A stretch of 64,000 nt of DNA, taken from assembly GCA_051294375.1 (NCBI GenBank), contig CM119266.1, positions 6,093,431 to 6,157,430 of the forward strand, written 5' to 3'. Both the position numbers and the translations under genes were made by a program. The DNA comes from Paraspadella gotoi. Its lineage: Eukaryota; Animalia; Chaetognatha. Within the stretch, counting starts at the first letter, position 1, and each line of letters begins with the position of its first letter. Below, one piece after another: positions 6,229-61,621 of the stretch. The notes under the pieces are model-generated. The model searched no databases and had not been told where the DNA came from. It was given only the letters and a program-made list of their open reading frames with translations.

Positions 6229-6442
6229 TATGGTGGACTAAAATCCACCAACCGTTCTCCAGTGGCCATTGGTGCCGGAGGCAAGTCATTCGCCTCCCAA
6301 CCCGGTGGCCGTCCTAGCAGTAAAGAGGGACGGGGCGCTTTACCCGCCTGTAACACGGTGTTACAGCCTGATCCGAAGCTCAGGGACTCCTTATATTGAA
6401 CAGTTCTGTCATTAACATATAACAATAATTACTGTCTCTTCA
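6229..6442 (+). mobile_element. Family-B solo LTR (twister site mutated TAA to TTA)
   Basis: TATGG...TTCA termini, TSD TTTT/TTTT, homologous to 44574-44805 and 47116-47319. Confidence 0.85.
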
Positions 6443-10409: not shown

Positions 10410-13400
10410 ATGTACGGATCTCGCTCCACTTCCGGTTGGACTCGCGACGCTAAATCCTTGGCCGGCGTCAATGGCGACGTCTCCGGCGGCGGCGGCCTCA
10501 GTGGCAGCAGCGGCGGCGTCAGGGGCGTGGCTCTCGACGCCGGCAGCGTCGCAAACGAATTTCTTCAGGGATTCAGACGAGTGGACGACGGGAGGTTGAA
10601 GACGGCGGGTGAGATGGCGGGAAAGTTGAAGAGTGATTTTGAAGGTTGTGAAGTGAGAATTGAAATGAGATGGAAGCTAAATTGCCCGTTTAGCTCAACA
10701 ATAGGCAATGATGTTTGATTATACAGTAATATTAATAATTTTTGGTCGATTTAAGTATGTATGAGTTTTGGGATGAGAATGGATTTCTTTTAGAATGGAA
10801 TCACAAAAGGACGTGTGACTCACATGTCACACCTCGACATTCTTGACTCATGACTTTTTCGCTTTTGTGATCAAGTCATTCGGTGAGACTACACACATAA
10901 CGGCCTTTTTATTCACAGCTTTCACGGTGGTCGATTCCGCCCACCATCTCACTTCACTCTCACCCGTCGTGTGAAAAAAAATAAAACTTTTAAAAATACA
11001 TTTAACGATCAAAACTCTTTGTTTATGATGTATGATATCTTCGTTACACACTATTCGAGTTCTATGCAGAAAAATCAGAAATAGTAAATAATTTGAATAA
11101 AATTATTACAGTTAGTCGTCCTCCAATATTTGGTGTCGGTCTGCCCGACTTTGTTGTCTGTTCCAACGCGCATAAAATTTCGTATTATTATTTTAATGCT
11201 CTCGATCTACATCTATTTGCTATTTAATTTTTGGCCGAATCTTTCTCGATGAATTAACCAACGTACCAAAAGACAAAGAAGTACCTACCATGAAAATAAA
11301 TTGAAATAAACTATTATTTTAATGCTCACTCTTAATCATTAGGAAATAATGTGCAAATGAGGTTCGAAGCGAGGCTCGTAAAAAATAACAAATGATCCGT
11401 CCACTGATTTTCAGACGACGACGACGTCAAATCTCAACCGGAAGTGACGTCAACTGAGGCGATGACGTCATCGAGTTTTATCAAATTGATGGAGGAAAAT
11501 CAAAGTCTGAAGGCGGAAGTTGGAAGGATGGAGTCGCTGTTGAAGGAGCACACCTTGCACAACTCGCTCGTCAGGTGAAAGAGAGAGAAAGACGGGGAAG
11601 AGAGAGAGAGAGAGAGAGAATTGAGATGAGATTGAAATTGAAATAATGATTAATTGTAAATAGCAGGGATAAAGAGGGGATATAATTCAAGTCGGATGAA
11701 AATGATTAAAAAAAGCCGTTACTAGAATATTTTAGGTTTTTACAAAAGATTCGACGGGAATGAAGATTTGCAGGTTTTGTCGCCGGTTTATTTTTAAGAG
11801 AATCCGAACTTAGGAGCTTGAATGCTCATTTTTTATCCTTTTATTCTTTTTTCTCCTGTTTTCTTCTTATCTTTTTATCTCGCCAGACGGGCTTAGGCTT
11901 AGGCTTAGGGCCGTCTTGGGCGAGATGTTCGCTTCTGTTTCTTTTTGACCGTCGTCGACGTTGTCGTTAAAATCACGCTTTTTTACAATTGAAAATTATA
12001 AAAGTTTGTAACCATAAGAAGCTAAAAATTTAGATATTTCTTCTAATCAGCAAGATTTTTTTAGATTCACATGTTTCATATTGCTACAATTATTTTTTAT
12101 GTTTTATTTACAAAACAATTGTATTGATTTATTTTTTTTTATAAAAACTACTACGAATTACGATTGTTTCTTATAAAAGTGTGATATCATAGGAAGCTAA
12201 AAATTTAGATATGGTTTCTCATCATCCCCACCCCCCACTAAACCAAAAAAAGGGAAACCTCGCCATCCCTTCAACTTCCCCTCTTACCGGTTGACAGGGT
12301 ACAACAAAAAAACCGGCTCACGTGACAATTCCCTCTTCGCATCTCCCCGATTAGGATTTTTTCGAATCTTTTCTTCGATTCATAGGACTTTTTAGTTGCG
12401 CCCCGAGTAATCGCGGAACAACTCTATAAGTCACTTTTCGGCCGGTCTTTCGGTCGATCTATTTTTTCTTGGTATTACAGAGATTCAAATATGAGCTCGG
12501 TAGTCTGTACTCGATGATAGCTTGAAAAGATATCTACTAGATAGTTTTCATGAAAAGACTTAACTCCATAAAACTGAACTAATGTTTCAAAACGCCACTT
12601 AAAATGGGTTTATACGCAAAATAACCTCGAGTCCAAATACATCAATCAATTACTATTACCTATTATTTCCTTTACGCTCTCCGCCTTTCCATCTTCCAGC
12701 ACTTAAATATTTCCTCTTTTACCGTCTCATTTTTACCCCAACCCTCTCTCTCCCTTCACTCCCTCTCCAGCCCCCTCGACGGCGCGCTGAAGACAGATTC
12801 CGAAGCCGATTCCATCGAATTCTCTTCGCTAACAAAAGAGCAGCTCGTGAGAATCAACGCGAGGCTGAGAAACAAGATGGAGGAGGAAAGCGCCAGCTAT
12901 CGGAGAAAATTGGAAAGTTTTCACGAGAGTCAACAACGACAGGCGCAACTCGTGCAGAAGCTGCAGTCAAAGGTTAATATATTTCCATTTATAAATATAT
13001 TTAAGTTTATTTTAAAGATATACATGAAAATGAAATGCATAGATTTCATTTTAAATAAATTGAAAGTGAACCGATAGAAGTAAGGGCCTAGGTAAGGAAA
13101 ACCTCAAAATTCTTGTGACAAATTGCAAAATGGGAAGCACAACTTTTCACCCGCCAATTTTCAAATAATACTCTTTTTTTATTATTACTTGTTTCATTTG
13201 TCTTTCCTATCTTAAACCATTTTCTTCACGACTGATCCAGGTGATCCAATACAAACGGAAATGCTCCGAGCTGGAGCAAACCCTGACGGACATCTCCGGA
13301 GAGCACGCTCGCTCTCGAACGGAGATGCGGGCGACGGCGACGACCCTGGCGGGCGAATTGGAAACTACGAACAAAAGACTAAACGAGATGAGCGATGATC

Positions 13401-16118
13401 GAGACTTGGATCTGGAATCGGCGTTAGTTCGGTTGGAAGAGGAGCAACAGAGAGGCGCTAGTCTCGGTGTGTGTCTTTTGTTTGTTTGTTTGTTTATTTT
13501 GTTTTTATTTTTATTACAATCCCTGTCACAGCTCACGTGAATTCGATGCTGCGTGAACAACTGGACGAAGCGACGGAAGCGAATCACAGTCTCACGAGTG
13601 ATATTCAGAAGATCAGCCAAGATTGGCTCTCCACAAAGGTCTCTTTTATTAATTTATTTATTTATTTGTTTGTTTTACATACTTAATTTTTTTATTTATT
13701 ATTTATTCATTTAAATATTTATTTGTTAATTTATTGGTACATTTATTTAATATTTCATTTTAAGGAGGAATTAAAAATGAAGGAGACGGCCTGGGAGGAA
13801 GAAGAGGCTTCCTTCACAAATTATTACTCGAACGAACACAACAAACTTCTCAGCCTTTGGAAGGACGTCGTCAATTTCAGGTATTATTGTTTTTGTCTTT
13901 TGTTTTGTCTTTTTTTTTCTTTTCATGTCATTATGTTTTGTTTTAGTCTTTTGTTTTTGTGTTAATCTTTTGTTTTTATTTATTGTCTTTTGCTTTTCTC
14001 TTTAGCTTTTGTCTGTTGTTTTTGTCTTTCTTTTTTGTTTTTTGTTTTTTTTTTCTTTTCTTTGGCAAAGATTTTTTATATTTCCCAACATTCTTTCACA
14101 TTAGTGATTCGCTGTGAGGTTTTTTATTATTATTTATAAATTAACTTAAAAAAAGTCTTTATTTTCAATCTTTTCTCATTGTTTTTGTTTTCCTTCATGA
14201 GATGAAACATCCGATTTTGACTAAAGAATAAATATTATCTTGACATCTTGACCGTTGGGCGGACCTCCAGACTTCTTGATCATTGACATGACCTCTTGAC
14301 CTTCTGACCCCCACCCCCGCGTCCTTTCCAGACGCCAATACGTCGAGATGAAGACGGCGAACGAGCGCGACCTCTCGTCCGTCCGCGCGGATGTGACGCG
14401 TGCGATGAGGACGATTCACGCCGGATGCGTTAACGTGGGAATCAAGGTTGGAACGCCTCGTCGAAAATGGGGGGGCGACTGTTAAGCGGGGGTTTTGGGT
14501 GTCATATCATGTCTTTTATCATGTCAAATCATATCATGTCTCTTATATACTATCTACTATCTACCAGTCTCTTAGGAGGCGTGGGTTCGAATCCGACCAC
14601 TGCCACCACATTTAAGTATTTAGACAGGAATTTCAATATGAAACCAAAGTGGATTTTATTCTCAGATATAAGTTATGCGAAGACGGTGTGAGAATTTGAG
14701 ACAGATGGATTCAATACAAAAAACAATCAGTATTTATACAGTTCAACCGGATCATCGACACGGCCTCGTTTTCCCGATGGCATGAAGCCCCTCTTCTCAT
14801 TGGTCCATTCCGATGGTGATTCATCCAATCGGCGCGTCCTTGTTCGATTTCATCCGATTCCGTCTGCGATGATACTATCTACTAAACTACTATACTTACA
14901 TATATATAATATATTATATATAATATATACTTATATAGTGACTCTGTCTCTTATAATATTATGTCCTTTAATATATTATGAAATTGGTATAAAATTATCC
15001 ATTAATTTAATAAACAACGTGCCCCTGACTTTGGACAGGCTTGGGTGGTTTAAGCCCTCCATCACTCTTACAAGATAATGACAAAGAAGGTCCCTGCAAG
15101 TTTTCAATCAAGACTCTCTGACTCTCAGTCTTTTTTATTCACTCCCAGAGTACCTGGCTTCCCTATCAATGAAGTGACATAATATTTCAAGGAATGTGTT
15201 TTGTTCTATTGTCTCTTTTTAAACGTATTATGAATTCTATAAACCTCTTCCTTATCCCATCTCCCCAATCGCACCCCCGCCACACCCCACCCCCCCTTTC
15301 CAGACCCGCGCCTCTGACAACGAGCGATCGTCCCTCATCGGCCGCGAGACGGACTCTCGAAAGGAGGCTGAGTCTCGATTGAGAGAGAAGGAGAGAGAGA
15401 CGGAGGAAGTGAAGAGAGAATCTCAGAGCCGAGTCAGGGCTTTGGAGGAAAAGGTAAGGGAATGATTGGGTGAAGGAGAACTTACCCAAAGGGAAGGATG
15501 TTAAGGGTCAGGATAAAGATTAAATCAGGGATTTGGTTTTGGTTTTGGTTTGAAGATTACGGATGGATATGAAGTATTAAGATGAGAGATTAGGTGTAAG
15601 ATTAAACCTAAGCCTTCTCTGATCTTAGTTAAATAGGGAGCATAAGTATTAACAACTTACATGCTTTGTTCATTTTATAATGATGTCAGAAAAAAAAATC
15701 CCATATGCCTATATTTGAATTCTTAGCTGGGGTCTCCCTAGAGAATCTGCTAGAAAATCTTCCTTTTTTTTTCACCATGGTCTTTGTAAACAGGGAATGA
15801 CTCTTTCCATCGCGATTCATTAATCGATAAATTTTCTGCAATATGCACTATTAGTTTAAACTACCCCAAATTGTAAAAATATCAAGTTTTGCCGTTACAT
15901 GCAATTCTTTGATATAATAATGATTTGTAGGAGACTAAAAATAGACGGTCTCCTCAGATTTGTTATTTTTTAATTTCTCTCCCTCAGTTATCGTTGGTCG
16001 GCGCAGAATTGGAAAAACTCAAATCAGAAATTAGAAGTAAAGAAGAAAAAATCAAAAGTTTGGAGGAAATGAAATTAGAACTGGAGTCGAGAGTGGATCA
16101 TCTGGAGGTGAGAGTGAG

Positions 16119-16149: not shown

Positions 16150-19100
16150 TAATATTAATCATGTTATCATTTTAATCTTGATGACAGGCGGCGAAGAATT
16201 TGACTTCGGGAAAACTGGACGAAGAACAAGAAGAGAAAAAAAGTTTGGGCGACGAAAATGTCGCGTTGAAAGTGAGATTAGTTGTTGTTGTTGTTTTTCC
16301 ATTTTCATTTGGCTAATTTCTCCCATCTATTTGTATATAATTCATTCATTTTTCCCATTTATCAAATATGTACATTTATCACTTCGTTATTATCTTATCA
16401 ATTTGGCTTTTCTATTTGTCTAATTTATATTGTTATTCTATTTCTTTCATATCTAATCCAATAGTCCAATACATGTTTCTGTTCCATTTCACTTATTAAG
16501 ATGTAGTTCGCCCTTTCTTAATCATAAAATCAATTATTGAATATTAATGAGAAACCCAACCCTCATCTCAAATATTTTTATCCAATCACAACTAACTTCT
16601 CAATCTTCCTCCAATCAAAACTCAAATCCTTCACTTACCCCCAACCACCCTCCCACCCCACCCCCTCAAATCCATCCACCCCACTCTCCCCTTCAAAAGG
16701 ACGCCCTCCGCGGCATCGCCTCACTCGTTCTCTCCGACGCCGAGATTCTACCGGACGAAGACGTCGGCGTCGTCGTCGATTCGTGCGGCGTCGTTTCCGG
16801 CTTCGGCGCGGCGTCTGCTGACGACGCCGCCGCCATCTTGGCTCGCGCTGCGTCGCCAATTCGGTCGCGGCCGTCGTCGCCGACGCGGCAGCTGCACGGG
16901 CGGACGAGGAGCGACTCGCCTGGGAGGTGAGGGAAGGTTGAGGGGCGGTTGAGTAAGTTGTATCTCCGGTCTTAGGATTATACACAAAACGTAATTTCAA
17001 GTTTATTACAACAATTTATATAAAAAAAGGGACGTTTATGGATGGTTTTTTTTATAACTGAAAACTGTATATAAACTTGAACTATAAAACTATTTCAGTA
17101 ACTGTCATTACTTCAATATGCAAATGAGATTATAGCACCTAATCTCATTTCATGCTGCATGCTATAGTTATTCTTGATACCGATTTTTCTTGTCTGTTAT
17201 ATTTAAATTGAAGCTTAATTCGTAATTTCTGAATTCCGCTCGCCAGATTCCGCTCTCTCTCCCCACGCCGCACGCCCGCCTTCGTCGAGTCTACCTGCAA
17301 CGCCGTCCAATCCGCCCTCAACAAACGTCAGTTGCAGATCAGGGAACTCCGCGCCAAGTTGCTCGCCAGCAGGGACCAACAGACGCACCTCAAGAAAGCA
17401 TTGGATGATGTAAGTTAGATTTTAAAAAAGGTGAATGAGGATTGGATAAAATTGAATCATTATGGCAACAGCCGGGTTGCCTGTGATGCCCATCGAGATG
17501 GGGCATCTCACTGTTGGCTTTGGGGGCTTCCAACCCTCAGTGACGCATCCAGTCACTTGCGCGGTTACCCCCGGACGGTCTCGCTTTGCCAACGCAGAGG
17601 GATGTCGTGAGGACTGTGGATGGAACACTACGCTTGGGATGGTGTGTTCCCGTGACGTGAGGCGGTGTGAATATACCGCCACATCATAATGTTAAAAGTT
17701 TTTTATCATTAAGAGATATCGCATTAGGCCTTTTACACATTGGGTCATTTAGGTGACCCGGAATTACATGTATTTTGGTTTCTTTCTGTCAGTCTGTATC
17801 ATCTTCATAACTTCTTGAAAGTAGCCATGGTTTGATAAATGGTCCACGCATTTAAAGCGTGTTTTAAAATACATTTTAATGCTCTCAAATTTAATTATTT
17901 GTATAATAATCATTTATTATCATTTAACTGAATTAAATTTTCTTCCAGGTTGTCGGGGAGAAGCAAGATTTGATCCAACATCGTGAGACATCGAAATTAG
18001 AGGCTGAGGATTTGAAGCAGACGAAAATCAATTTGGAGAGAGAAAAGGATTTAGTGAAAGGACAATTGGCCATCGCTAATGTGGAGAAAGGGAATTTGGA
18101 GAGCGGGAGACAGGTAGAGAAGAGAAGAGAAGAGAAAGAGAAGAGAAGAGAAAAGGAACGTCAAGATTATAAAAGAAAATAAATTTACTAGGATTTAAAA
18201 GAAAACAAAGAAAGAAAAAGTTAAAAAAAATAATATAAAAAAATTTCAAGCAGAAATAAGGGGAAAAGAAGAATAAGAAATATACTAAGAAATAAAGAAG
18301 GAAAAAAGTGTAAGATAGAAAATAACATTGCAGAAAATGAATTAAAAGAAATAAATTAAAGAGAGAAGGAAAGAATAGAAAAAAAGGGGGAAAAAAGAGG
18401 AGAAGAAAGATAGAAAAAATAAATGAAAAAAATATTACTTTTAGATAAAAATTATTCAATCAATCAATCTTCCACTCAGGCGCTCCTTGACAAACTAGAA
18501 GAGATCCGCACGGAAGTGGAGCGCGTGCGGACGGCCAACTCGGAGCTCCAACGTCTCCGCGACAACTTGGAGGACGAGAAGGAGGATCTGGTGAAGGATG
18601 CGGAGAGGCGCGCCAAGGAGTTCGTCAGAAATCAGAAGACGATGCAGTGTTTAGAGGCGAAAAACTCACAGTTGAAGGTTTGGAAAGCGCTTGATCTTTT
18701 TTGGAATTAAGTTAAGTTAAGTTCGTTTTTGTAAATATCTTATATTATGAATTAAAGAAACCCTAAAAAATATATTTTACGTACAATTATTTATTTTAAA
18801 TAAAAATTTCAATGAATTTTGTTTTCTTAACGTAAGTCTTTTTGTAATTTTTTTTTCATTTCTCTTTTTTTCTCGCTAAGAATCTACATATTATTTTAGT
18901 ACTCATGAATATATTCTTAATTCGGTTTTATTTTCTTGCTTAACATTTTTCCTCTGTAAATTTTGGTTGATTTTTTATCTTCATAATGATTTCCACTTCT
19001 CTCTTCCGCTCTCTCTATTACTTAATTACTTTCAGCCTAACAATATTTGTTAACAAGATCGATGTCTGTCCTAATTCTCCAGGAGGATCTCTACAAGATG

Positions 19101-20920: not shown

Positions 20921-23900
20921 TTTGAAAGGTCGCGTATCCAAGGTTTCCCCCACTAAGTAGTAAAAGATTGTAATCTTTTACTAATTTAGTCTGTTATTCA
21001 GATACTTGACCAAATTCACAGAGTTTTCTGAATGCTCAAATTTGACTTAATTCACATAATAGACTGCATGCACAAGAATTGACTTAATTCACAGAATGAA
21101 TTCACCGAATTCATTCCCCCCCCAACTTATCTCTCTAGGACTCCGCGCGGACAAGGAAGGGCTCGAGACGGCCGTGTTCGAGTCTCAGCAGCGAATCTTG
21201 ACGCTGGAGAATCGAAAGGAGGCGCTGGAGGCGGAGAATCAGGAGCTGCTGCTGCGGAAGGACGGGCTGCTGGAGGACGTGCAGCGGCTGAGGTGAGGTT
21301 TATGATGTAGCGAGTCACGAAGAGGAGTTTTGAGGAAAGTCTTAACTCTTTAACTATTTAATTTGGTTTGTTGCAAAAAAAGTTGGCTCTTTTAACCTAA
21401 CCTTTTCTTTGAGACAATTAATTTAAAAATATAACAACAGAAACAGTGAAATAATGTTTCTCATCCTAAATTCTGAAATAGTTTTAAAATTACTCTGATA
21501 TTTACAATATTTATAAACATTAAATTAATTTTTATTCCTTTATTCCAAATCGAGTCAGTCTGTAAGAGGCGTTTCATCTTGTCCTTTCACAATGACCTTT
21601 TGTTTTCCCCAGATTCCAACTCGAATCGGACAACGAGAGAAAAGAGAGAGAGAAAGAGACGTTGATCGAAAAATCTGAGAAAGACAATCAAGAGAATCAA
21701 ATTCGGCTGCAGCAGGCGAGGCAGACGCACGAGGAGGACGTGGAGAAACTTACCCAAGAAAAGATTGAGTTGAGGTAAGGCCTCGAGGGTCTTGGATTCG
21801 ATGGCAGCGTTGAGAGTAAGTTTAATTTCTTACTTTTTTTTAACTTCAGATCGCAACTGGAGAAAGCGAGGGACGAAGCTATTTATAGATTGGAGGTGGA
21901 GAAAGAAGAGCTCAACGGAAAATATAATCAAGAGAAGGTAAGTTGGTAAATTAGGTAAGAAGGTTTATTTAAATTTAATTAAATCAGTCGCGAATAACTT
22001 TTTACGAACTGCAATATCTTTAATTGATTAATGTTATTATTATGGTTTTTGTTATCTTATTAAGTTAATATAATTTGTCCTTTTAAGCAATCGCAAATAA
22101 TTTTTCTAGACTGCTTCATATTTTATTTGCTTGTAATTATTTGCTTATCAAGTTATTTCTTTTTTCCCCCAGGAGGAGCTCAACAACGAAATCCTTCGCC
22201 TCCAGAAAGAAAGAGACGATTGTCTTTTGTTGGCGGAAAACGAGAAACAGCAGCGCCTCTCGCAGGCGCAAGCGGACAAGGCCGCCATCTTGGAAAAAGT
22301 CTCCGTCGCCAACAATCAACTCGGGTGAGAATATGAGAATTTATGAACAGTGAATTCATACCAAATTTCAAACATATATGAGGAAAAACATTAACAAATG
22401 CGATATAATGCCTATTTAATTGTTTATAATAACAAACAACATTTTACAGGGAAACTCGCGTCGAATTGGATAAAGCGAAGCGAGAAGCGGAAATGGAAAG
22501 AGAAGCGAGCAAAGAAAAGATTCACGCTTTAAACACAGAAATCCAAAACAACAGGTTTTCATCCTTTCTTTAAAAGATTAAAAATTGGATTAATAGGCTG
22601 CGTTGGTCTCTTGATATCTAAATATCCATCCATCGATCCAACTATCCACACTTCCATCTGTCCATTTATTTTTTTATCACTTTATCCATTTCATCCGTCC
22701 ATTCTTCAATCCATCTATTAATCCATCCATTCAGAAAACCATCCATCCATTTATCAATCCACTCATTGATTAATCCCTCCCTCCTTCCGATCCATATTCA
22801 TTTAACTCATCCATCTATTTGACTGTCCATATATTTATTCATCCATTATGGCAACAGCCGAGTTGCCTGTGATGCCCATTGGGATGGGGCATCTCACTGT
22901 TGGCTTTGGGGGCTTCCGACCCTCAGTGACGCATCCAGTCACTGGCGCGGTTACCCTAGGACGGTCTCGCTTTGCCAACGCAGAGGGAAGTCGTTAGGAC
23001 TGTGGATGGAACACTACGCCTGGGATGGTGTGTTCCCCCTCTGAGCCAATGGATTTGGCTGAACGATGGTGGTCGTGAGGCGGTGTGAATATACCGCCAC
23101 ACCATCCTATATAATCGTTCATTAGTTTAACAATCTATAAATCCATCCATCTATTGATCCATCCTTGGGTCCATTCCTTCATCTATTCATCGAACCCATC
23201 CATTTAATACATCTATTAATCCATCCAAACACCTATTAATCCATTCATACATCTATTAATCCATCCATACATCTATTAATACATCCATACATCTATTAAT
23301 CCATCCGATCCAGATCAGCGTTCGAGGCCTCGACTCTCGCTCAAGAGAAGGAAGTCAAGGAGGCGGAGAATCGCGTCGTGGAGTGGAGACAGAAGAAGGA
23401 ACAGGTCGACCACGAGCTCGCCGAGTGCAAGGTCGGAATAAGAATAATTTTATTAGATATAGCTTTAGAATTTTTAATTTAAAATAAACACTCAATTACT
23501 AAGTACTGAATCGTGGCGAATCAGTCGACCCCGAAACTAAATATTTTGTAAAACGTAGGTTTGAGACGATTTCCTTGTAGATTTTATCTCAGTATCCAAC
23601 ATACAAATAGGATTTAAGTGTCTACTCAAATATTTAGCTACAAAATAAATTTTCTTTAAAAATTAAACAAAATTAATGTTAAAAAGATTTTGAAGGCGTC
23701 CAGGAAGAAGATGATTTTAAAAGTTAAAAAAATAGTAACATTCTGCAATGATCTGCATTGATGTCATTGTAAGGTTACAACAGAATGTCTAGCAGCAAAA
23801 GCTATTCATGCGCTTGTCCTCAAATCTTCAAATCTCCATAACGATTCATCTTCAAACGTTCGTTGCCCAATGCACAGAAGTCCATTGCCCATTTGTCCAT

Positions 23901-32300: not shown

Positions 32301-34385
32301 GTTAATTAAATATAAAAACTGACTTGTTTTTAAATCTAAGCTAAAATATTTTCAACCACAACAGTTTTGACTGACTGACCAGTGACCACGACCTTCCCCT
32401 TTCTTTCGGCACCGCAGATCACTCCGCGCCGGAGAAGAGATGCGGTCCCTCCGTTCCATCCTCGGCGCCGCATCCCCGGGAGCTGGCGACGCCGATGACG
32501 CCGTTGCCGGCGCCGTCGCAGGAGACGGCGTCGATCGATTCCATGACAAAGACGCCGCGGAATTATCGATGGGAAAGAGTCTGAGGGATTCGGGATTCGA
32601 AACGAAAAGTGAGATTTGGTGGATTTGGTTGATTTTAGGAGGGTGAGGGATGTAACTTGATTGTAGGCGGGTAAGGGATGTAACTTGATTGTAAGCCGGT
32701 GAGGGATGTAACTTTATTGTAGGCGAGTAAGGGATGTAACTTGATTGTAGGCGGGTGAGGGATGTAACTTGATTGTAGGCGGGTGAGGTATGTAACTGAA
32801 TGTAATAGTTAATAAAATAGAAGAATTAAAGAGAGAGGGGGAGAGAGAGACGGGCACTTCCTTACCTTATACCTCTCCGTCCTCCTTACCCTCTTCAGCC
32901 GGAGCCAAAGATATCCTTCTTTCTCCGACTCCAGATTTTCGCTCAACATTTTCCGGCAAAAACGATTCCACTCGATCGAGTCTCCGGATTCCGGAATCGA
33001 AGCCGGAATCTCGGCGGAGGACGCCGCCCACCAAACTGGCCGCCGCCGACGCCGCGAGGTCTTGAGATTGGATGGAATGAATGGACTGCAATGAGTGACA
33101 ATGTGCAATTGACGCTAAGGGACTGCCGCTTATAGTTATAGACTGCTATAGTAATTAACGTTTTAAATTTAAACGATTTTTAGTATTTAATCTTGAAGTA
33201 TTTCCCTAATTACTTTTAATTCTTTGTGACAAATAATTTTGTTGCGTTCGTAAATCTATTTTTAAATTAAAAATTTAAAATATTCCATTCTCTGCGATGA
33301 TAGGGTAAGCCTACTCAAGTTTTAAAAAAAATTATTACAAAAATATAAAAGAGAATTAAATTATTTCTTGCCACTTAGATTAGGTACGAGCTTTGGTGTT
33401 TTTTGTCACATAAAACCGTCAATAATTTTATTCTACAAAGAGAATATGCATAGAAATAATAGGACTAATTTATAAAATAAACCACCAAAGCTTGTCCAAA
33501 GTCAGTGACAAGATAGCTTATTTATTAAATGAATGGGTAATTTTTATATTGGTTGTTGATAAAAAAATAATGAAAAATACGGATTTTCTGAGAATTTTAT
33601 GGAAAAATTCCTCCCAAATCGAATTTTATTTTAACGGTTTTGATTTTTTCTTTAGGCCGATGGAAGGTAGACGCCAATTGTCACCAACAAGAACACTCTC
33701 TCCCGTCAGGTACATGATACATAATTATAGGGGTCGCCCCACTCAATGAGGTGAGTCAAAAAGTTAGATCGAGTACAGGCTCAAACGAAAATGTATTCAT
33801 TTTGTCAAGAATACTTTCAATGGGCAAAAAATTTAACCTTTTGTCGACTAGAACGCGCAGCGGTTCTCCCCAGCGCCACCGCGCGGGCGCGACTCACCAA
33901 AGGCTGACGTCGACGCCGGCGACGAAAGTGAGCGACGCCGGAGCGAACTCGGGTAAGTTTTGGGTGAGTTCGGAGAAAATTAGGTTAAAAACTCATTTTT
34001 ATAAACCGGTTTATCAGGTTAATCGGGATAAGAACAGACCTTTTTTTAGAAATTGGGTAATCATTAAGGACAGAATTTTTTTACTACCCCTTGTTAACCT
34101 TTCTTTCCTTTTTTTCTTTTCTCTTCTTTTCCTTTTTTCTTTTCCTTTCCTTTCCTTTTCCTCTCGTTTTCTTTCCTTTCCTTTCCTTTCCTTTCCTTTC
34201 CTCCATATCCAGAGCCGTATTCATGGCAACAACGCGCCACTAGTCCTGATCGTCAATCCGCTTCTCAAACAGACAGCCTTCGCTTCTCCCGCGAGTCCCA
34301 GCTGAGAAGCGGACATTCGAAACCGCTTCCCACGGGGTCGGCCGCGCAAAATGGATTTCAGCGGAGAAGCAACCGAAATTCATGA
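10410..34385 (+). CDS. CROCC: Rootletin (ciliary rootlet coiled-coil protein), about 48 exons
   Basis: GT-AG exons; the junctions I translated join in frame. They give EEESASYRRKLESFHESQQRQAQLVQKLQSKVIQYKRKCSELEQ, LESALVRLEEEQQRGASLAHVNSMLREQLD, YYSNEHNKLLSLW, DALRGIASLVLSDAE, EVDPEGVRVALLDF and RERSHRQRVKGLEEQV, all recognisable rootletin motifs in a long coiled coil. First exons 10410-10608, 11415-11574 and 12771-12972; last exon ends at TGA 34383-34385. The start codon and last three exons are less certain. Confidence 0.93.
14563..14608 (+). pseudogene. 3' half of a mature tRNA-Leu including CCA
   Basis: ACCAG-TCTCTTAGGAGGC (long variable arm)-GTGGGTTCGAATCCGAC-CACTGCC-A-CCA matches the animal tRNA-Leu(AAG/TAG) 3' half. 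Confidence 0.85.
14611..14900 (-). mobile_element. LTR (Ty3/Gypsy-like) followed by a tRNA-Leu primer-binding sequence
   Basis: Minus strand TGTAAGTAT...ATACTTAAA (terminal inverted repeat, one mismatch), with internal CCAAT, TATAAATA and AATAAA in LTR order, then TG + TGGTGGCAGTGG. Confidence 0.75.
14975..15083 (+). repeat. Dispersed repeat (family C); inverted copy at ~59838-59960
   Basis: GCCCCTGACTTTGGACAGG...CTCCATCACTCTTACAAGATAATGACA matches the reverse complement of 59838-59900. Confidence 0.7.
17461..17683 (-). mobile_element. Family-A solo-LTR-like element in a rootletin intron
   Basis: Near-identical to 22847-23101 and 38337-38592 apart from an internal deletion; termini TGTGG...CCATA; 4-bp TSD TCAT/TCAT. 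Confidence 0.85.
17512..17594 (-). ncRNA. Putative twister ribozyme, type P5 (family A)
   Basis: Same core; T1 loop TGG pairs with CCG through a U-G wobble; one P3 mismatch. Confidence 0.62.
19620..19870. repeat. Minisatellite (~23-nt and ~20-nt units containing TTGAGAGTGGA)
   Basis: Tandem GCATGAAAATGTTGAGAGTGGAG units. Confidence 0.85.
22847..23101 (-). mobile_element. Family-A solo-LTR-like element in a rootletin intron
   Basis: Full-length copy; 4-bp TSD CCAT/CCAT. Confidence 0.88.
22898..22980 (-). ncRNA. Putative twister ribozyme, type P5 (family A)
   Basis: Same core as 38458-38541; predicted cleavage between 22953 and 22952. Confidence 0.72.
32641..32797. repeat. Minisatellite, 28-nt unit
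   Basis: Tandem GGGTGAGGGATGTAACTTGATTGTAGGC units. Confidence 0.9.
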
Positions 34386-38336: not shown

Positions 38337-38592
38337 TGTGGCGGTATATTCACACCGCCTCACGTCCACCATCCGTCAGCCAAATCCATTGGCTCAGAGG
38401 GGGAACACACCATCCCAGGCGTAGTGTTCCATCCACAGTCCTAACGACTTCCCTCTGTGTTGGCAAAAGCGAGACCGTCCTAGGGTAACCGCGCCAGTGA
38501 CTGGAGGCGTCACTGAGGGTCGGAAGCCCCCAAAGCCAACAGTGAGATGCCCCATCCCAATGGGCATCACAGGCAACCCGGCTGTTGCCATA
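38337..38592 (+). mobile_element. Family-A solo-LTR-like element
   Basis: Full-length copy, TGTGGC...GCCATA; 4-bp TSD CCGC/CCGC. Confidence 0.88.
38458..38541 (+). ncRNA. Putative twister ribozyme, type P5 (family A)
   Basis: P5 TGTTGGC/GCCAACA; P2' GCG(A), conserved GA, T1 CCG; short P1; T|AA site at 38486/38487; P2 (C)CGC; T2 GC; P3 CAGTGAC/GTCACTG; P4 GGG-T-CGG-AA-GC-CCC. Confidence 0.75.
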
Positions 38593-43286: not shown

Positions 43287-45275
43287 TCAATCGTTTGGAT
43301 GTTCAGGGCAAGAGCGATTCACTTCGAACCACCTGTCGATGCAACTGTCACCGAAAAAAGATGAATTTTTCAGTCACAAATATTTAAGGTTTTAAAATAT
43401 TAAATAATAAATAATAAATAATGAAATAGTTAAATATCTAAATTTACCTTTTATGATAAATGCAGAGGCAAGGCAACCGAGCTATGCTATCTCCAGAGTC
43501 CATGTCTTCAAAACAGATCACGCATTCACCGGCTGAGCTGGATAATACATCCTTCTGAAATTTCATTAAATTATGTTTTTAACAAATCGTAAAACGAGCT
43601 CTCTAAACAAAATATATGTTAATATAAACCTCAACCATAATCAGTATCATCGTAGGAAGCTAAATTATAATATAGAATATAGACTTTTTATAAATAAAAA
43701 TTGAGGATGAAACCTAAACCTTAATGGGGTGAAGGGGAAGAAGAAGAAGAAAAAACATATGTAATCCAGAATCAGAGTTTAAAATAGATCTAAAAAGTAA
43801 TAGAGCTGAAAAGTAACTGTAACAACGCAAAACTGATAAAGAACTGACCTGATATGATGACATGACATATAAAATTACAATAGAATTAAAAGTCTCACTT
43901 ACCATTGTAATTTATCCTTGGTTTAGTTAGGCACATGATGAGATGACATTCGATTTCGTCGGGAAGGACAAATTTTGAACAGACGGGACATTTTATACCT
44001 AAAAAATTAGTAAATTATACTGAGAGCGTTTATTCAATTCATGGCATACAATAAAAACGTAGAAAGTTGAACTTTCATTTACGTACATTTAGTATTCAAT
44101 ACAATTAATAATAAAAATTAATGACATTGATTTTTACAGTTGATAGACCGATGAAATTACTTTCCGTCAATAAGTTGTTCATTAAGATATAGTTAACAAT
44201 CCTAATACCTAATACTAATCCTAATACCTAATGCTAATCCTAATACTATTCCTAATACTAATCCTAATACCTAATACTAATCCTAATACTCGTTTACAAC
44301 CAAAGACAATAACACTGTCTACTCCTGAGGATAAAAAATGTTATCCTTTTCTCATTTAAAATAAGAAAGAATTAGTTATATTCGGCTAAAAGAGTTTTTA
44401 AAAACGTCAAACAAAAATATACATAGGATAGGTGAATATAAAATTAAATGTTACGTATACTGCAATATGCAAATACAAATATGGGGAAACAAATACGATG
44501 TTAAAACGGATAGTTGAGATAGAAAGATTAGAGTGTAAATTATCACAGTTATAATATAAAGCTATTATTTCCTTGAAGACAGTAATTATTGTTATGTGTT
44601 AGTGACAGAACCGTTCAATATAAGAAGTCCCTGAGCTTCGGATCAGGCTGTAACACCATGTTACAGGCGGGTTAAGCGCCCCGTCCCTCTCAACTGATAG
44701 GCGGCCACCGGGCTACAACCCCGGACCTTTGGGTTGGGAGGCGAATGACTTGCCTCCGGCACCAATGGCCACTGATGAACGGTTGGTGGATTTTAGTCCA
44801 CCATAGCCTATTAATAAGATCAGACCCTTGAACCTGGTAAGGAGAGGAGGTGGACCGGCAGAGACTGGGCGTGAAAGACGCGGCCGGTCAAGGGTAAGTT
44901 CATTTCCTCCGGAGTGGACGCTTCGCTGGCGGCGGCCTGACCGTAGGCGCCGTCCGCGGAGAGACCTGCAGAATTAGTCGGCGCCGCCGACGCCGCCGTC
45001 GGTGACGCGGCGTCCATTGGCGATGGAAGCCCGTTCCCTTGGGCGCCGGGGATCCCGATCGGGTGACGCCCGTTCTCCACGGCTCCACCGCCGTGGCCGC
45101 TGGGCACGCTGCCCATGCTCCGGGCGCGCGACCGCGCCCCGGACGGTTCGAGTAGCCCGTTAGGTCGCGAGTCATCGTCAAGAACGGGAGCTTCAGAGGC
45201 ACTTTCGTCGAACTGCCCCGAGGCCGGCGATACGATTCTTGCCACGCCAGTATGCGCACTCTGCCTCGCACCCAT
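43287..45275 (-). CDS. ZNRF2: E3 ubiquitin ligase ZNRF1/ZNRF2 family
   Basis: Myristoylation-type start MGARQS, zinc finger KCPVCSKFVLPDEIECHLIMCLTKPRINYN and RING-H2 ECVICFEDMDSGDSIARLPCLCIYHKSCIDRWFEVNRSCPEHPND. Exons 45275-44834, 43998-43903, 43554-43448 and 43344-43287. There is one surplus base at the exon-3 acceptor (see findings). Likely a single co-ortholog of ZNRF1/2. Confidence 0.93.
44574..44805 (-). mobile_element. Family-B solo LTR in ZNRF intron 1, same strand as the gene
   Basis: Full copy; flanks TCCT/GCCT (3 of 4 TSD bases match). Confidence 0.85.
44621..44692 (-). ncRNA. Putative twister ribozyme, type P5 (family B)
   Basis: GAGG-GA-CGG-GGCGCT-TAA-CCC-GC-[CTGTAACA/TGTTACAG]-CCTGA-T-CCG-AA-GC-TCAGG; cleavage between 44674 and 44673. 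Confidence 0.7.
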
Positions 45276-46718
45276 CACGACGCGACCTCGGGTGGGGAAA
45301 TCACGGGACGCATCGATCCGTCGGTCGCGGCGAAGAACACGATTCCTTTTTTCGAACGAAAACGTTTTTGTGCGTAAAAAGACTCATGACCGTATCGTTC
45401 TGTCTCGTTCTCTGTCTGCGTTATAATGCTATGAATAATGACGTCACAAAAAAAGTCTGAGCACGGTCTGAACACGGGATTTCGATGGAGTCGGAGATGA
45501 TCTTTTGTTGGAGGACGAGGGGGAAGAGATTTGGAGGAAGATTAGTTGCGACATCTTTAGAGAAACATATATTTTATTGCGTTTGTTATATACATCATAT
45601 AACACTTGAATAATAGCAAAGCAGTATAAACTATAATTATCGAAGGGCAAGACAATTTTTAAAAAGTACACGATGCCTTAAAATTTAGTGAGTTAATTAC
45701 TTTACGACCGCACGGGCCAAAAGATTCAAATTGATTTTTTTGTAAATATCTTTTCAATCATTTAACTAAAATATTTTTTTTAAATAATAAACTTTTATAT
45801 TCTTGTAACCTTAAACCTAAAACTCAACTTACAATCCGAAAACTGGAAAGGCTCAATCCGAAAAAGCGAAAAAAAAATGCAGCTAATTCGTGATTTTTTC
45901 ATATTTTCACGTATTTTTTTTCCCAAGCAGAGAAAGCTTTTACACCAACAATCAACAATATCATCAAAATAAAATAAGATTTTTGTGACAATTTAAATTG
46001 AACGAATATATTGAAATTAAACTTACGTTTACAACTAACCATTTTGTCCTTTTGTTTCATTAAGCGATAAATTTTAGAATTAAAATCCAAAATGGCCTCC
46101 GGTCTCCGGTCGATAACCTCGTTCTTTCTTTAATTTTCACGCCTTTTTTACGTCAGCCTTTGTGGATTCTTGACGGCGAGGGTGTTTTCTTTCGTAGTAG
46201 TAAATTATAGGCTTCGCCCTACCACTTAAATGTGTGAATCTGTCATATTGGCTTTCAAATTTAATGTTCTTTTTACGTATGCTTAACACGCATGTTATAT
46301 CCGCGTTTGGACTTCAATACGTCGTCACAAGGATTTACTGTTTGTGATATTTTCTGGATTCGTGATTTGTCGTTCGTTGCGATTCATTTCTATCGTCCAA
46401 GCTCAGTATTTTTTGTATATTAATAATTTAATTGGTTTTCGGAATCCTTATTTTTGAATGTTTAAAATAATATCACTGTTGTATTAATTGTTTTAATTTC
46501 GTTGAGTATGCCTTGTATGGTGGACTAAAATCCACCAACCGTTCATCAGCGGCCATTGGTGCCGGAGGCAAGTCATTCGCCTCCCAACCCAAAGGTCCGC
46601 CCACAACACATCAGGCGACATGCCTCAACTTGGTGATGAACTTTCCAACAACAACAATTCACTGAAGAGACGCAACAGACTTCTCCCTACGGGAGGGGGG
46701 GATGTATGGTGGACTAAA

Positions 46719-47115
46719 TGTAAAGTCCAGACGACCGTAACTCAGATGCTCTTTTAATAAAGGAGATATCGACATTCGTCTCTTTCTCTCTTTTGCGGTC
46801 ATTCCAGATTTTGCTCTGAAACGGGACTCTTCTCTAAAATAATAAACGTTTGTGGATGCCTAATGGACACTTAGTGGTTTCTTCATGGATTTGTTTATTT
46901 ATTTACTATTGCTTTGATTAATTAGTATTTCATTATTGTCTGTCTGAATATCTATATGCTTTGATTATTTTATTAAGGTACCATTAAATATCAAGACTCC
47001 AAGTGGATAAGAAACTTTATTATAAACTTTACGGCGCCAGCGGTCCCGGTCTTTAGTCCAGTTTCTCTCCCGACGTCTTCTCCCTCTCCGCTAGGTCGAG
47101 GAGGGGGTTCTTTCA
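46719..47115. mobile_element. Nested solo-LTR-like insertion of a third family inside the family-B 3' LTR
   Basis: TG...CA termini with TSD TAAA (46715-18 and 47116-19); removing it restores TATGGTGGACTAAAATCCACCA. Confidence 0.8.
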
Positions 47116-47198
47116 TAAAATCCACCAACCGTTCATCAGCAGTCATTCGCCTCCCAAACCAAAGGTCCGGGGTTCTAGCCCAGTGGTCGCCTGGCATT

Positions 47199-47270
47199 TA
47201 AGAGGGACGGGGCGCTTAACCCGCCTGTAACATGGTGTTCCAGCCTGATCCGAAGCTCAGGGACTGCTTA
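47199..47270 (+). ncRNA. Putative twister ribozyme, type P5 (family B, 3' LTR)
   Basis: Intact core as in 44621-44692 with one P3 mismatch; cleavage between 47217 and 47218. Confidence 0.68.
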
Positions 47271-47879
47271 TATTGAACGGTTCTGTCACTAACATATAAC
47301 AATAATTAATGTCTCTTCACTTGATTATGTTCTTAATGTACCGCCGGTCCCGCTCGTCCTTTTAAAACTTCTTCCGAAACTAACAGAAAAAAAGAGAAAA
47401 ACTATATATCATCGTCGATCCGCTCCGGCAGACAATTCTTCCCTTAGTAAGCCTTACCATCCAAGTTACCAAAAATAACCGGGATTTACTTGTTAAAACG
47501 TTTACAAGGACATTGGAAAATAATACTGAAAGTGGCAAAACTGTACGCGCTTATGGAAAGGAACGCGTGTGTATTCTCAAAACCCACCAATAACATTTTA
47601 CTTAGCTTCATATTCGTAACATTACATTAGGAAGTAAATTTAATTAATTTTATCTACACACAAAAAAAAAATTTTCTTCCATTTTTTAATCTCTACAGTG
47701 TCAAGTTTTATCGAGTTTTGTAAAAGAGTTAAACTAAAAATACGACCATTGTAATCATAAATAAAAACTGTTATTTTGTAAATATTATTATTATATTTTT
47801 TATAAATTTAGTAATATTTAAATATTCTAATGTTAAATTATTGTATACTTAAGCCGAAACTTAATTTTTAATTTAACTC

Positions 47880-48705: not shown

Positions 48706-51700
48706 ATGGCCGGCGCGAAACCGCTGAGGTAGCTGGGAAATGTTCTTTATTTACTGTTTTTTCTGTAATGTAATGTTTGATGAATAATATAATATTAATC
48801 GTTTATACTTGAAATTTTAAATAAAAACGTGGCTTAGATTGAAACAAAGTAATTATTGCGTCTTTTTCAGATCCCGTCGATCGGCCGGCGCGTCGGCGTC
48901 GGGCGCGTGGGCGCGAAAGAGTCTGATGCGCGGCGACGGCGGCGGCGGGGGCGTCTCCAGCGGCGGCATCGGGCAGCCCTCTGTCTACCACGCCCTCGTC
49001 GTTATCTTTCTCGAGTTCTTCGCCTGGGGGCTTCTCACCAATCCCATGATCACCGTCCTCGCCCAGACTTTCCCCAATCACACATTCCTTATGAACGGTG
49101 AGTCTCGATAATTTACCATTCGCACTCCATAAATGCTTATAGATAATATATGAATTCCGAGGTATTAATAATAAGAATAATAATTAATATATTTAGTCCT
49201 AAATTCTAAATGGCATAATCAGCATGTCTATGCTTTCTTATTCTTTTTTGTAATAGCAAGGAAATTTTTCCCCTATTGTAAGCCTAATTTACAGCATTTT
49301 TTTTTTTATTAAAATACAGGATTAATAAACGGTATCAAGGGCATTCTCTCCTTCCTCTCTGCGCCCCTCATCGGCGCCCTCTCCGACGTCTGGGGGCGAA
49401 AGTCTTTCCTCTTCGTCACAGTCTTCTTCACCTGCGCCCCAATTCCATTGCTAAGGTGGGGAATCTTGTTTTAATGATGGGTTTATGTTTAAAATAAAAC
49501 GTTTAATGAACGATTGAACGTTTTAAATTAATTTATTAACAAATTTGTAACTCAGAAAGTCGCTTATTTTCAAAATATCTCAACTCTCCGCAAATGTTGG
49601 TCACCAAACCTGCAAACCTTTTCGGCACCCTTCCTCTTAAACAATTTACTGGCTGGAAATGTCAAATATTAAACAACATAAACACTTTGTGGTACTTATG
49701 ATATTTTCTTTTCCTCCGTTCAGAATAAGTCCCTGGTGGTGCTTCGCTGTGATCTCAATGTCGGGGATTTTCGCCGTCACCTTCTCCGTCGTCTTCGCCT
49801 ACGTGGCGGACGTGACGACCCAGGACGAACGCAGCGCCGCCTACGGCCTCGTTTCCGGCACCTTCGCCGCCTCCCTCGTTACCTCGCCCGCTATCGGTGA
49901 GTATTGTGATCATTACATTTAAAAGACGTTGAGCTGTCTCTGACTCTGTGTCTCATCTCTCTCTCTCTCCCACGCTCTCTCAACTCCACAGGAGCCTACC
50001 TTCAGCAAACCTACTCTGATTCGTTTGTAATTCTTCTGGCGACGCTGATCGCTTTCCTCGACGTTCTCTTCATCATCGTCTGCGTTCCGAGTCTCTTCCC
50101 GACAAATGAATCTCCAAGCAGGTCGGGGGTTTTGTTGTTGCTGCCATTTGCCATTGCCGTCGTCGTCTTTTTTATTTTTCCGTCAGCCACTTGTCGAAAA
50201 AAAAATAATTTTACAGTTAATAAACTAGACTGTTAGTCTTGACTGAAAGCTTGCGGGGTCCTGCAATTTTATTATCTTGTAAAAGGGATGAACAAAGTCA
50301 TGGGTAGGATAGCATGTTTTTTGAATTAATGGATAATTTTTACATAGTTTTATACAATTTCATGAAACTTTTACATTACTCATCAGGCGAATGTCTTCAC
50401 ATGGGAAACTGCGGATCCATTTTCGTCCCTACGTAGAATGGGTCACGACTTCACGATTCTTATGCTCTGCGCCACCGTTTTTCTTTCCTATCTCCCCGAG
50501 GTAAGATCATTATTAGTCAATTGATAATGATAATGAATCTAAAGAAATGCGTTTATAATTTCTTGTCAGTGAATATCGAGATTACAATTTAAATTAAAAG
50601 ATCTGGTCCCTTCATTTCTCCAATCAGGCGGGACAGTATTCAGCGTTTTTCGTTTACCTTCGCCTGGTGATGGGATTCACGGAGCAGGCGACGGCCATGT
50701 TCATCGCGGTGGTGGGGCTTCTCTCGGTCGTGGCTCAGACGGCGGGGCTCACGATTCTGATGAAGACGGTGGGGAACAAGAACACCATCGTCATCGGCCT
50801 CGGTTAGCGTCGCCGCGGGATGATTTAATCTTCCATCCTGTATCATTCCTTTATTAAACCTAAATTCCCCCCCCCCAACCCCCTCCGACCAGTCTGCGAG
50901 ATGATCCAGCTGGCTTGGTACGGCCTCGGCTCCCAGCATTGGATGATGTGGGCGGCGGGCGTGGTGGCCGCGGCCTCCTCCATCAACTACCCCGCCATCT
51001 CCGCCTTCGTATCGAACCACGCCGACGCCAACCAGCAGGGTGTGGTGCAGGGAATGGTGACCGGCATCCGCGGATTGTGCAACGGGCTCGGACCCGCCCT
51101 CTACGGTTGCATCTTCTACTTGTTCCACGTTGATCTCAACATCCCGCTTGAGAATTATTCTGGAACGCCGCGAGCGACGCTCCTTCCGGGGAACGTCTCC
51201 ACTCCCGGTGGGTTGAGGGCGTCGAAAGCGGGGTTGGCGGATTCACCTTCGTAATTTAATTGATCATTAATGATGAATTTATTTTTGATGATGTTAAATC
51301 TTTATCACTTGTGTTAAATATTTTGATTCTGATGCTTATGAGGCTAAAGTTTTGTTCACGTAAATTGATTGTAGACTTCTAACGTCATACATATAACTCC
51401 GTTTAGAGAATTTCACCGCTAAATAATCAATTGGCTACATTATTAACAGTCGCGCAAACGCCTCCGACGCAAGCGGTGATCCCGGGACCTCCCTTCGTCT
51501 TCGGATCCGTTTTGGTAAGCCGATTTATTTCATCGTCTCGATCATTCGTCAATCCTGTATCTCCCCCCTCCCGCTGACAATGTCTACTTTTTCTTTTCGT
51601 CCCGTAAGGTGATTCTTGCCCTCTTGGTTGCTCTCTTCATTCCCGAGTCGCCCAAGAATTACACGTCGCCGGGAGGAAGCCGGAAGTCCTCCAAGGAGGC

Positions 51701-55018: not shown

Positions 55019-61621
<6,603 letters not shown>

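What the first reader, a model, noticed from the sequence alone, without database searches (positions are those of the whole stretch)
46516..47319. LTR retrotransposon family whose LTR carries a sense-strand twister ribozyme (family B)
Seen: a CTTG TSD brackets a partial LTR, an internal remnant, a polypurine tract and a second LTR. The ~215-230 bp repeat (also solo at 6229-6442 and 44574-44805) is therefore a true LTR with unusual TA...CA ends, and the PPT fixes its sense strand. On that strand it reads GG-GA-CGG-[P1]-T|AA-CCC-GC-[8-bp P3]-CCTGA-T-CCG-AA-GC-TCAGG. Established: the twister core is U|AA, P2, GC, optional P3, P4 with loop U-NNN-AA-GC, P2', GA and the NNN complement (pseudoknots T1 and T2). 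All of these are present here in the P5 permutation. The LTR retrozymes I know use hammerheads (plants), and the animal twisters I know are in non-LTR or tandem repeats. Inference: self-cleavage in both LTRs would release a unit-length, possibly circularisable, RNA. No clear TATA box or AATAAA is visible in this LTR. Caveats: P2 has only 2 clear pairs and P1 is very short.
Basis: partly seen in the sequence, partly recalled or inferred. Interest (0 to 1): 0.93.

Follow-up and report, generated by a model that had tools for sequence, protein, structure and literature searches.

The report
Twister-ribozyme LTR retrotransposon with tRNA promoter
This is a broken copy of an abundant jumping element, likely from an animal, whose terminal repeats carry a tRNA-derived stretch (likely a promoter) followed by a predicted self-cutting twister RNA, which would make it a twister-based counterpart of the hammerhead 'retrozymes' known from plants.

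Summary
The anatomy holds, with one correction. The element reads CTTG | 5' LTR nt 1-84 | deletion | 91-bp internal remnant | polypurine tract | TG | 3' LTR | CTTG.

The ~232-bp LTR has sharp ends and at least 200 different flanks in one run. It holds a complete type-P5 twister core on the sense strand: 0 of 20,000 shuffles match a strict descriptor that I tightened after a loose scan. Rfam does not hit it.

New here:
- a tRNA-derived segment sits upstream (18-22 bits, 0 of 1000 shuffles), as in Helenus TRIMs, which likely explains the missing TATA box and AATAAA;
- three more twister families in the window show compensatory changes, and all four have a loop-less palindromic P1, suggesting cleavage as dimers.

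Against: no primer site or intact two-LTR copy is seen, a competing hairpin dominates the predicted monomer fold, core conservation is not in excess (p=0.27), and cleavage is untested. Ten literature searches found no twister in an LTR; the scan's notes hold no earlier case.

The parts
46512..46515 (+). left target-site duplication CTTG
46516..46599 (+). 5' LTR, nt 1-84 only (TATGG start, terminal hairpin, box-A-like word, start of the tRNA-like segment); rest of LTR and primer site deleted
   Evidence: 83 of 84 nt identical to the solo copy at 44574-44805
46600..46690 (+). internal remnant, 91 bp; one frame runs open through the tract into the LTR; no protein relative found
46691..46704 (+). 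polypurine tract (12 nt) plus TG spacer
46705..46718 (+). 3' LTR, nt 1-14
   Evidence: 14 of 14 identical to the other LTR starts
46719..47115 (+). nested 397-bp TG..CA element, likely a solo LTR of another family, with TAAA duplication (46715-18 and 47116-19)
   Evidence: no second copy in the window
47120..47319 (+). 3' LTR, remainder, ending CA; 20-bp deletion over the box-A-like word
47145..47186 (+). tRNA-derived segment (anticodon arm remnant, variable loop, T arm); box B-like word at 47171-47181
   Evidence: 21.9 bits on a profile of 34 bacterial tRNAs, 0 of 1000 shuffles, best site of the window
47193..47268 (+). type-P5 twister with P3; predicted cut 47217/47218; palindromic P1 at 47211-47216
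47320..47323 (+). right target-site duplication CTTG
44574..44805 (-). solo LTR B2, 232 bp; tRNA-like segment 44705-44746; twister 44623-44698, predicted cut 44674/44673
6229..6442 (+). solo LTR B1, 214 bp; lacks about 20 bp over the T arm and has U in place of the catalytic A at 6341 (likely inactive)

Best explanation
[quoted passage not shown] Shown from sequence: LTR anatomy, 4-bp duplications, tract, tRNA-likeness, twister core. Inferred steps: (1) Pol III starts near LTR nt 20-30 and reads through (no run of 4 T in the LTR or remnant; weak at these lengths). (2) The twister cuts after nt 132 of each LTR. Its P1 is a loop-less palindrome, so the two LTR copies of one transcript, or two RNAs, likely supply P1 to each other, tying cleavage to full-length or dimerised RNA. 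(3) Two cuts leave no terminal repeat, so joining of the 5'-OH and cyclic-phosphate ends by a host ligase would replace the first strand transfer. (4) Integrase trims the TG left after the tract, which would explain the TA start. The element at 46516-47319 is itself broken and cannot do this.
For: LTR: tract + TG directly before the LTR start once the nested element is recognised; duplications at 3 of 3 B insertions (2 exact, 1 with a mismatch); sharp ends, over 200 flanks, no A tail. Animal Helenus TRIMs have tRNA-like LTRs, 4-bp duplications and Gypsy partners (PMC10886601, sections read). tRNA-likeness: 18.0 and 21.9 bits against about -5+-4.3, 0 of 1000 shuffles each, top 2 sites of the window. 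A pattern from this segment lands in tRNA genes in 20 of 21 viral and 8 of 9 prokaryote loci; its gaps were placed with recall of tRNA layout. Twister: strict descriptor. A model built only from family C and its sister ranks B1 and B2 first among non-training hits, full length, on the predicted strand (15.5 and 14.7 bits, E 0.03 and 0.05; next hit E 2.5). Pairings change together across families: T1 CCG/CGG (B), CGG/CCG (C), CCA/UGG (A); T2 GC/GC (B, C) vs AC/GU (A); first P2 pair C-G (B) vs A-U (A); one P3 pair A-U to G-C in C'. P1 is a different self-complementary word in each of four families (self-duplex -8.3, -9.1, -11.0, -7.4 kcal/mol; chance 0.039 per 6-mer, 0.012 per 8-mer). Precedents: retrozyme cycle (PMC4918200, passages); palindromic hammerheads that likely cleave as dimers in Penelope elements (PMC6765202, passages); a hammerhead in the same place in two published wasp Helenus LTRs (my reading by eye of the supplement).
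Against: No primer binding site follows any B copy, and no intact two-LTR copy was seen; 2 of 3 insertions are solo. No cleavage or RNA data. Nearest-neighbour folding of B2 puts 0.96 on a competing hairpin that ties up T1 and P2, and about 0 on P2 (pseudoknots not modelled). Folding z-scores are unremarkable, -1.19 and +0.97. No Rfam hit on B; the P2 5' strand is 3 nt against 4 in the Rfam consensus. Model R1 missed B3 and family A at E<=5. No excess conservation of the core. P5 is imperfect in each single copy (5, 5 and 4 of 6 pairs, read). Box A is degenerate, and ARAGORN and Rfam see no tRNA. Family C has the same TATGG..CA ends but its twister on the opposite strand and no tRNA-like segment. 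The palindrome is imperfect or lost in single copies of A (14991) and C (17461), and P1 is dispensable in other twisters, so dimer dependence is unproven.
Confidence: 0.52

Rival explanations
1. Same element, but the twister works as a 3'-end former: the 5' copy is mostly left uncut, the 3' copy defines the RNA end in place of a poly(A) site or terminator, and reverse transcription uses an ordinary terminal repeat (about LTR nt 25-132) with no circle.
For: No AATAAA or T-run in the LTR, so another 3'-end signal is needed; the competing hairpin would slow monomer cleavage.
Against: Both LTR copies have the same sequence, so selective cutting needs an extra rule; in one tested plant retrozyme the 5' copy was fully processed (PMC9695139, passage).
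Confidence: 0.2
2. The tRNA-plus-twister cassette is a passenger: a SINE-like unit (as with the schistosome Pol III-hammerhead repeats) landed in an LTR, and the ribozyme is not needed for the family's spread.
For: SINE insertion into an LTR is the proposed origin of Helenus. Family C carries its twister in the other orientation. One contig in each of 3 of 4 runs joins the B 3' tail to a different upstream sequence with a box-B-like word and no twister. No excess core conservation.
Against: Catalytic and pseudoknot positions stay under 2% variation except three places at 2-8%; a ribozyme sits at the same place in wasp Helenus LTRs (by eye); an active cutter inside the genomic RNA is unlikely to be neutral (inference).
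Confidence: 0.13
3. B is the LTR of an autonomous gag-pol Gypsy element and the remnant is the tail of its pol gene.
For: One frame stays open from the remnant through the tract into the LTR, as is common in Gypsy elements (recalled).
Against: No protein relative at E<=10 (weak for 53 residues); no retroelement domain in 46 window ORFs; Pol III promoters are associated with short elements.
Confidence: 0.08
4. B is not an LTR but a single-unit SINE or non-autonomous DNA transposon, and the composite is two neighbouring insertions.
For: tRNA head; mostly single units; 6 contigs in X1 join copies head to tail, one across a 4-nt spacer; terminal hairpins in B and C.
Against: One duplication brackets the whole composite; the tract abuts the second copy; no A tail or simple repeat; sharp 5' end; no terminal inverted repeat in B; about 25-30 nt lie upstream of the tRNA-like part.
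Confidence: 0.05

Closest known systems
Plant LTR retrozymes (Cervera, Urbina, de la Pena 2016, PMC4918200; passages seen)
   Same: Self-cleaving ribozyme inside the LTR on the sense strand, 4-bp duplications, polypurine tract, many solo LTRs, predicted unit-length RNA without a terminal repeat.
   Different: Type-P5 twister instead of type III hammerhead; likely animal host; shorter LTR (232 vs 300-400 bp); tRNA-derived segment; TA start; primer site, circles and cleavage not shown here.
Helenus TRIMs / TRIMp3 (PMC10886601; parts 2-4 of the text, passages, 4 word searches of the supplement)
   Same: tRNA-like sequence in a short LTR with a GGTTC box B, 4-bp duplications in animals, tract followed by a short spacer, abundant solo LTRs.
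   Different: No ribozyme is described (the word occurs once, in a reference title); LTRs seen in the supplement start TG; box A is weaker here. By eye, two Synergus LTRs hide a type III hammerhead; the twister loop words I searched showed no twister, but the file was not read whole.
Type-P5 twister, Rfam RF02684
   Same: Strand order P5'-P2-GA-T1-P1-UAA-P2-T2-P4-L4-P5; both pseudoknots and both catalytic bases present.
   Different: Extra 8-bp P3, 3-nt P2 strand, loop-less palindromic P1; no Rfam hit.
Twister variants of Perere-3/RTE non-LTR elements (PMC8501958, abstract and introduction; PMC7761336, passages)
   Same: Twister used by an animal retrotransposon to process its RNA.
   Different: Those sit at the 5' end of autonomous non-LTR elements; here the twister is inside an LTR, in the P5 permutation.
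Schistosome Pol III-hammerhead SINE-like repeats and Penelope palindromic hammerheads (as reviewed in PMC6765202, passages)
   Same: Pol III promoter followed by a ribozyme; palindromic minimal helix thought to need dimers.
   Different: Hammerheads, non-LTR or pseudo-LTR, tandem arrays, no tract or fixed 4-bp duplication described.

Membership tests
LTR retrotransposon | Direct terminal repeats bracketed by one short target duplication | tested here: met
   5' fragment and 3' LTR, 63 of 64 aligned nt identical, CTTG on both sides
LTR retrotransposon | Polypurine tract directly before the 3' LTR | tested here: met
   46691-46702, 2 nt before 46705
LTR retrotransposon | Primer binding site after the 5' LTR | tested here: inconclusive
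   That junction is deleted in the only composite; none follows the solo copies
LTR retrotransposon | TG..CA termini (usual, not universal) | tested here: not met
   TA..CA in 3 of 3 insertions and in most flanking contigs; a TG lies between tract and LTR
TRIM / Helenus | tRNA-derived sequence in the LTR with box B | tested here: met
TRIM / Helenus | Box A (TRGCY..YGG) | tested here: inconclusive
   A TGGCC..TGG word at LTR nt 35-44 in B1 and B2; it begins with C in B3's 5' LTR and in most contigs
TRIM / Helenus | Short non-coding interior, whole element about 1.3 kb or less | not testable with these tools
   No genome held; only a 91-bp remnant
TRIM / Helenus | 4-bp duplication (animal, Gypsy partner) | tested here: met
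Twister ribozyme | U/AA cleavage site, GA with general-base G, L4 U-NNN-AA-NN | tested here: met
   B2 and B3; B1 has lost the catalytic A
Twister ribozyme | Pseudoknots T1 (3 bp) and T2 (2 bp), helix P4 | tested here: met
   All Watson-Crick, with compensation across families
Twister ribozyme | 4-bp P2 and a formed P1 | tested here: not met
   2 pairs plus mismatch or bulge; P1 only between two copies; such imperfections are tolerated in natural twisters
Twister ribozyme | Rfam twister model above cut-off | tested here: not met
Twister ribozyme | Site-specific self-cleavage | not testable with these tools
   needs a bench assay
LTR retrozyme | Hammerhead ribozyme in the LTR | tested here: not met
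   Twister instead; a simple hammerhead core scan of the window found none
LTR retrozyme | Unit-length linear and circular RNA | not testable with these tools
   Only contig runs were available
SINE | Starts at the tRNA head, ends in an A tail or simple repeat, variable duplication | tested here: not met

The most novel reading that the evidence does not exclude
Animal LTR retrozymes exist and this genome runs them on twisters: a Pol III-driven TRIM whose two LTR twisters complete each other through a palindromic P1, cut only the full-length or dimerised RNA and yield a circular intermediate. The double-twister design recurs in at least four repeat families of the window, and tRNA promoter plus ribozyme in an LTR has arisen twice (hammerhead in gall wasps, twister here).
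Probability: 0.4. Interest if true: 0.92.

Novelty: new variant of a known kind. Interest (0 to 1): 0.78.

Why it matters
The reviews read place LTR retrozymes in plants with type III hammerheads, animal retrozymes among non-LTR repeats, and twisters at the 5' ends of RTE elements. A twister in an animal LTR behind a Pol III-type promoter would show that the retrozyme strategy is independent of ribozyme class and kingdom. It would give a concrete job to some of the many animal twisters without known function. It also makes two questions testable with short transcripts: whether natural twisters can work as obligate dimers, and whether ribozyme cutting plus ligation can replace the terminal repeat in LTR reverse transcription.

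Tried and rejected
1. I first took 46704-46887 for a separate tract-bearing LTR and thought the tract did not belong to family B. Rejected once the TAAA-flanked TG..CA insertion was seen.
2. No genome is held, so no genome-wide search for full elements was possible.
3. No RNA holder is listed among 11 runs; this is no evidence on expression. X9 is only guessed to be RNA, and all four runs laid were contigs, which cannot show RNA ends. No read or contig support was obtained for the interior of the composite, so the copy number of the remnant and of the nested element is open.
4. The B twister pattern gave 0 viral hits and 21 metagenome loci; none has a full P4 (at most 3 of 5 pairs) or similarity to the window, so they are chance. 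The family C pattern gave 0 viral hits.
5. The strict tRNA-like pattern gave 0 viral hits; blastn against phages gave only chance matches; ARAGORN found 0 genes and Rfam no tRNA; nhmmer with the tRNA profile was only marginal (E 0.043 and 1).
6. Protein searches with the remnant and with a rootletin exon found nothing.
7. Co-folding two B cores paired the P3 and P4 arms, not P1, so it does not test the dimer model.
8. Covariation within family C alone is weak: 2 pairs changed on both sides, reached by 31 of 500 shuffles.
9. Earlier scan notes: nothing by sequence or place, one unrelated Penelope-hammerhead note by words.
10. The supplements of PMC11662667 could not be read, so I cannot exclude that a relative of this twister is among those tested there. 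A paper on non-canonical LTR ends was not held. Repbase and Dfam cannot be searched here.

Full report
Setting. The window is AT-rich eukaryotic DNA with short exons. One exon scores above the Pfam cut-off for rootletin. Its two best of 6 library hits are named hemipteran proteins at 38% and 47% identity; the other four have no name. The host is therefore likely an invertebrate animal; the phylum is not settled. No genome is held.

Anatomy. Self-comparison finds family B at 6229-6442(+), 44574-44805(-) and twice in 46516-47319. All three insertions begin TATGG, end CA and sit in 4-bp duplications (TTTT, AGGC/AGGA, CTTG). In the composite the first copy stops at nt 84, 91 bp of other sequence follow, then the tract GGGAGGGGGGGA, TG and again the LTR start (46705). 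That start breaks off after 14 nt because a 397-bp TG..CA element with a TAAA duplication is nested there; the LTR resumes at 47120. The two LTR copies differ by 1 substitution in 64 aligned nt and a 20-bp deletion. The primer site was lost with the deletion.

Abundance and ends. Laying four contig runs on B2 gave 11,328, 2,797, 2,398 and 930 contigs. In X1, 221 leave at the 3' end and 162+40 at the 5' end into unrelated AT-rich flanks, whose commonest adjoining letters are ATAT. That gives a lower bound of about 200 insertions. Summed depth of 0.65-2.8 million in the interior against about 90 in the flanks is not a copy number but points to far more. Six X1 contigs join copies head to tail, one across a 4-nt spacer.

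The twister. On the sense strand B2 and B3 read P5'-UAAGA-GG-GA-CGG-GGCGCU-U/AA-CCC-GC-P3-CCUGA-UCCGAAGC-UCAGG-G-P5 (the short linker varies between copies). Rfam does not hit it; the RF02684 consensus has no P3, a 4-bp P2 and a looped P1. A loose descriptor gave 18 sites against 5.5 by chance. A strict one, set afterwards, gave 6 against 0.04, and 0 of 20,000 LTR shuffles; the 6 sites are 3 families, not 6 independent cases. The stronger argument is comparative. Families A, B and C and a sister C' keep the same skeleton with different but complementary letters in T1, T2, P2, P3 and P4 (C' keeps 2 of 3 T1 pairs). A model trained on C and C' alone picks B1 and B2 as its best outside hits (E 0.03 and 0.05, rough), though it misses B3 and A. 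In all four families the P1 stretch is self-complementary without a loop, the twister parallel of the palindromic hammerheads of Penelope elements, which are thought to cleave as dimers (PMC6765202). Against activity: the predicted monomer fold is dominated by a competing hairpin (0.96, no pseudoknots), the core is not more conserved than the rest (3 of 33 vs 23 of 152, p=0.27; five places private to B2 were left out), and B1 has lost the catalytic A. Decay after insertion is expected to be uniform, so the conservation test has little power (inference). P1 and P2 defects were tolerated in about 1950 tested twisters, whereas pseudoknot and catalytic defects were not (PMC11662667); B2 and B3 have only the first kind.

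The promoter. LTR nt 60-101 score 18.0 (B2) and 21.9 bits (B3) on a profile of 34 tRNAs from one bacterial genome (30 of its 59 tRNA loci fetched; the tRNA that had matched my pattern and two longer ones dropped, one more lacked the anchor). Shuffles score about -5+-4.3, 0 of 1000 reach the value, and these are the two best sites of the window. B1, which lacks the T arm, scores -3.8. A pattern from the segment falls in tRNA genes in 20 of 21 viral and 8 of 9 prokaryote loci. The segment is not a functional tRNA. This matches Helenus TRIMs: tRNA-like LTRs, 4-bp duplications in animals, Gypsy partners (PMC10886601). It likely explains the missing TATA box and AATAAA. Pol III use is inferred, and box A is weak.

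Mechanism. Most likely Pol III transcribes from the first 20-30 nt of the 5' LTR through the element, each twister cuts after nt 132, the product holds exactly one LTR's worth of sequence and no terminal repeat, and ligation to a circle lets a borrowed reverse transcriptase proceed, as proposed for plant retrozymes (PMC4918200). Every step of this is inference. The main rival keeps the same parts but uses the twister only to end the RNA. Family C warns against over-reading: same TATGG..CA ends and 4-bp duplications (3 of 3), but the twister on the other strand and no tRNA-like segment.

Novelty. Ten full-text searches returned no report of a twister in an LTR, of an animal LTR retrozyme or of a dimeric palindromic twister. 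The library lacks most subscription papers, and one review mentions unpublished insect elements with type III hammerheads (PMC7761336). Seen: passages of PMC4918200, PMC7229834, PMC7761336, PMC6765202, PMC5680766, PMC9695139 and PMC13565253; abstract and introduction of PMC8501958; abstract of bioRxiv 2026.07.22.740005; abstract, passages and sections 33 and 35 of PMC11662667, supplements unreadable; parts 2-4 of PMC10886601 and four word searches of its supplement. In that supplement two gall-wasp Helenus LTRs carry, by my eye, a type III hammerhead behind the tRNA part, not mentioned in the text; this was not run through a tool. It supports the design and shows that a ribozyme in an animal LTR is probably not unique. 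Verdict: a new variant of the LTR retrozyme / TRIMp3 kind; anatomy solid, ribozyme very probably real by descent, activity and circular intermediate untested.

Noticed in passing
window 17461-17683(+), 22847-23101(+), 38337-38592(-): Family C: 223-256 bp units with TATGG..CA ends, exact 4-bp duplications (TCAT, CCAT, GCGG) and hairpins at both ends. It carries a type-P5 twister with P3 and a 6-bp P5 on the strand opposite to TATGG (predicted cuts before 22952 on -, before 38487 on +); no tRNA-like segment. Deserves its own follow-up.
   Followed up: partly
window 4292-4369(+): Sister twister C' beside a CT microsatellite: compensatory changes in P3 and T1, perfect 8-nt palindromic P1, A at the -1 position, one T1 mismatch.
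   Followed up: partly
window 59855-59897(+), 15025-15066(-); fragments at 33478-33556, 50235-50367, 55641-55709: Family A: compact P5 twister without P3, the only Rfam twister hit (25.9 bits); no LTR-type ends or tRNA-like segment seen, host element unknown.
   Followed up: partly
window 46719-47115(+): Nested 397-bp TG..CA element with TAAA duplication, two AATAAA and one TATA-like word; single copy in the window.
   Followed up: partly
supplement of PMC10886601: Helenus-2_SyJa-LTR and Helenus-2_SyUm-LTR: By eye, a complete type III hammerhead with long loop-loop complementarity just downstream of the tRNA-like part; not mentioned in the paper. These would be insect LTR retrozymes with a documented primer site.
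   Followed up: no
contigs laid on window 44574-44620: One contig in each of X1, X5 and X6 joins the B 3' tail to a different upstream sequence with a box-B-like word and no twister: possibly a ribozyme-less sister LTR.
   Followed up: no
window 44574-44805: Variation among copies is mostly C>T and G>A at CpG sites (8 of 11 CpGs variable), suggesting methylation of this repeat in the host.
   Followed up: partly
window 12625-13540(+): Rootletin-like exons (Pfam PF15035).
   Followed up: partly
window 14558-14605(+) and 7451-7492(-): Two further tRNA-like T-arm words (10.5 and 11.0 bits), possibly SINE remnants.
   Followed up: no
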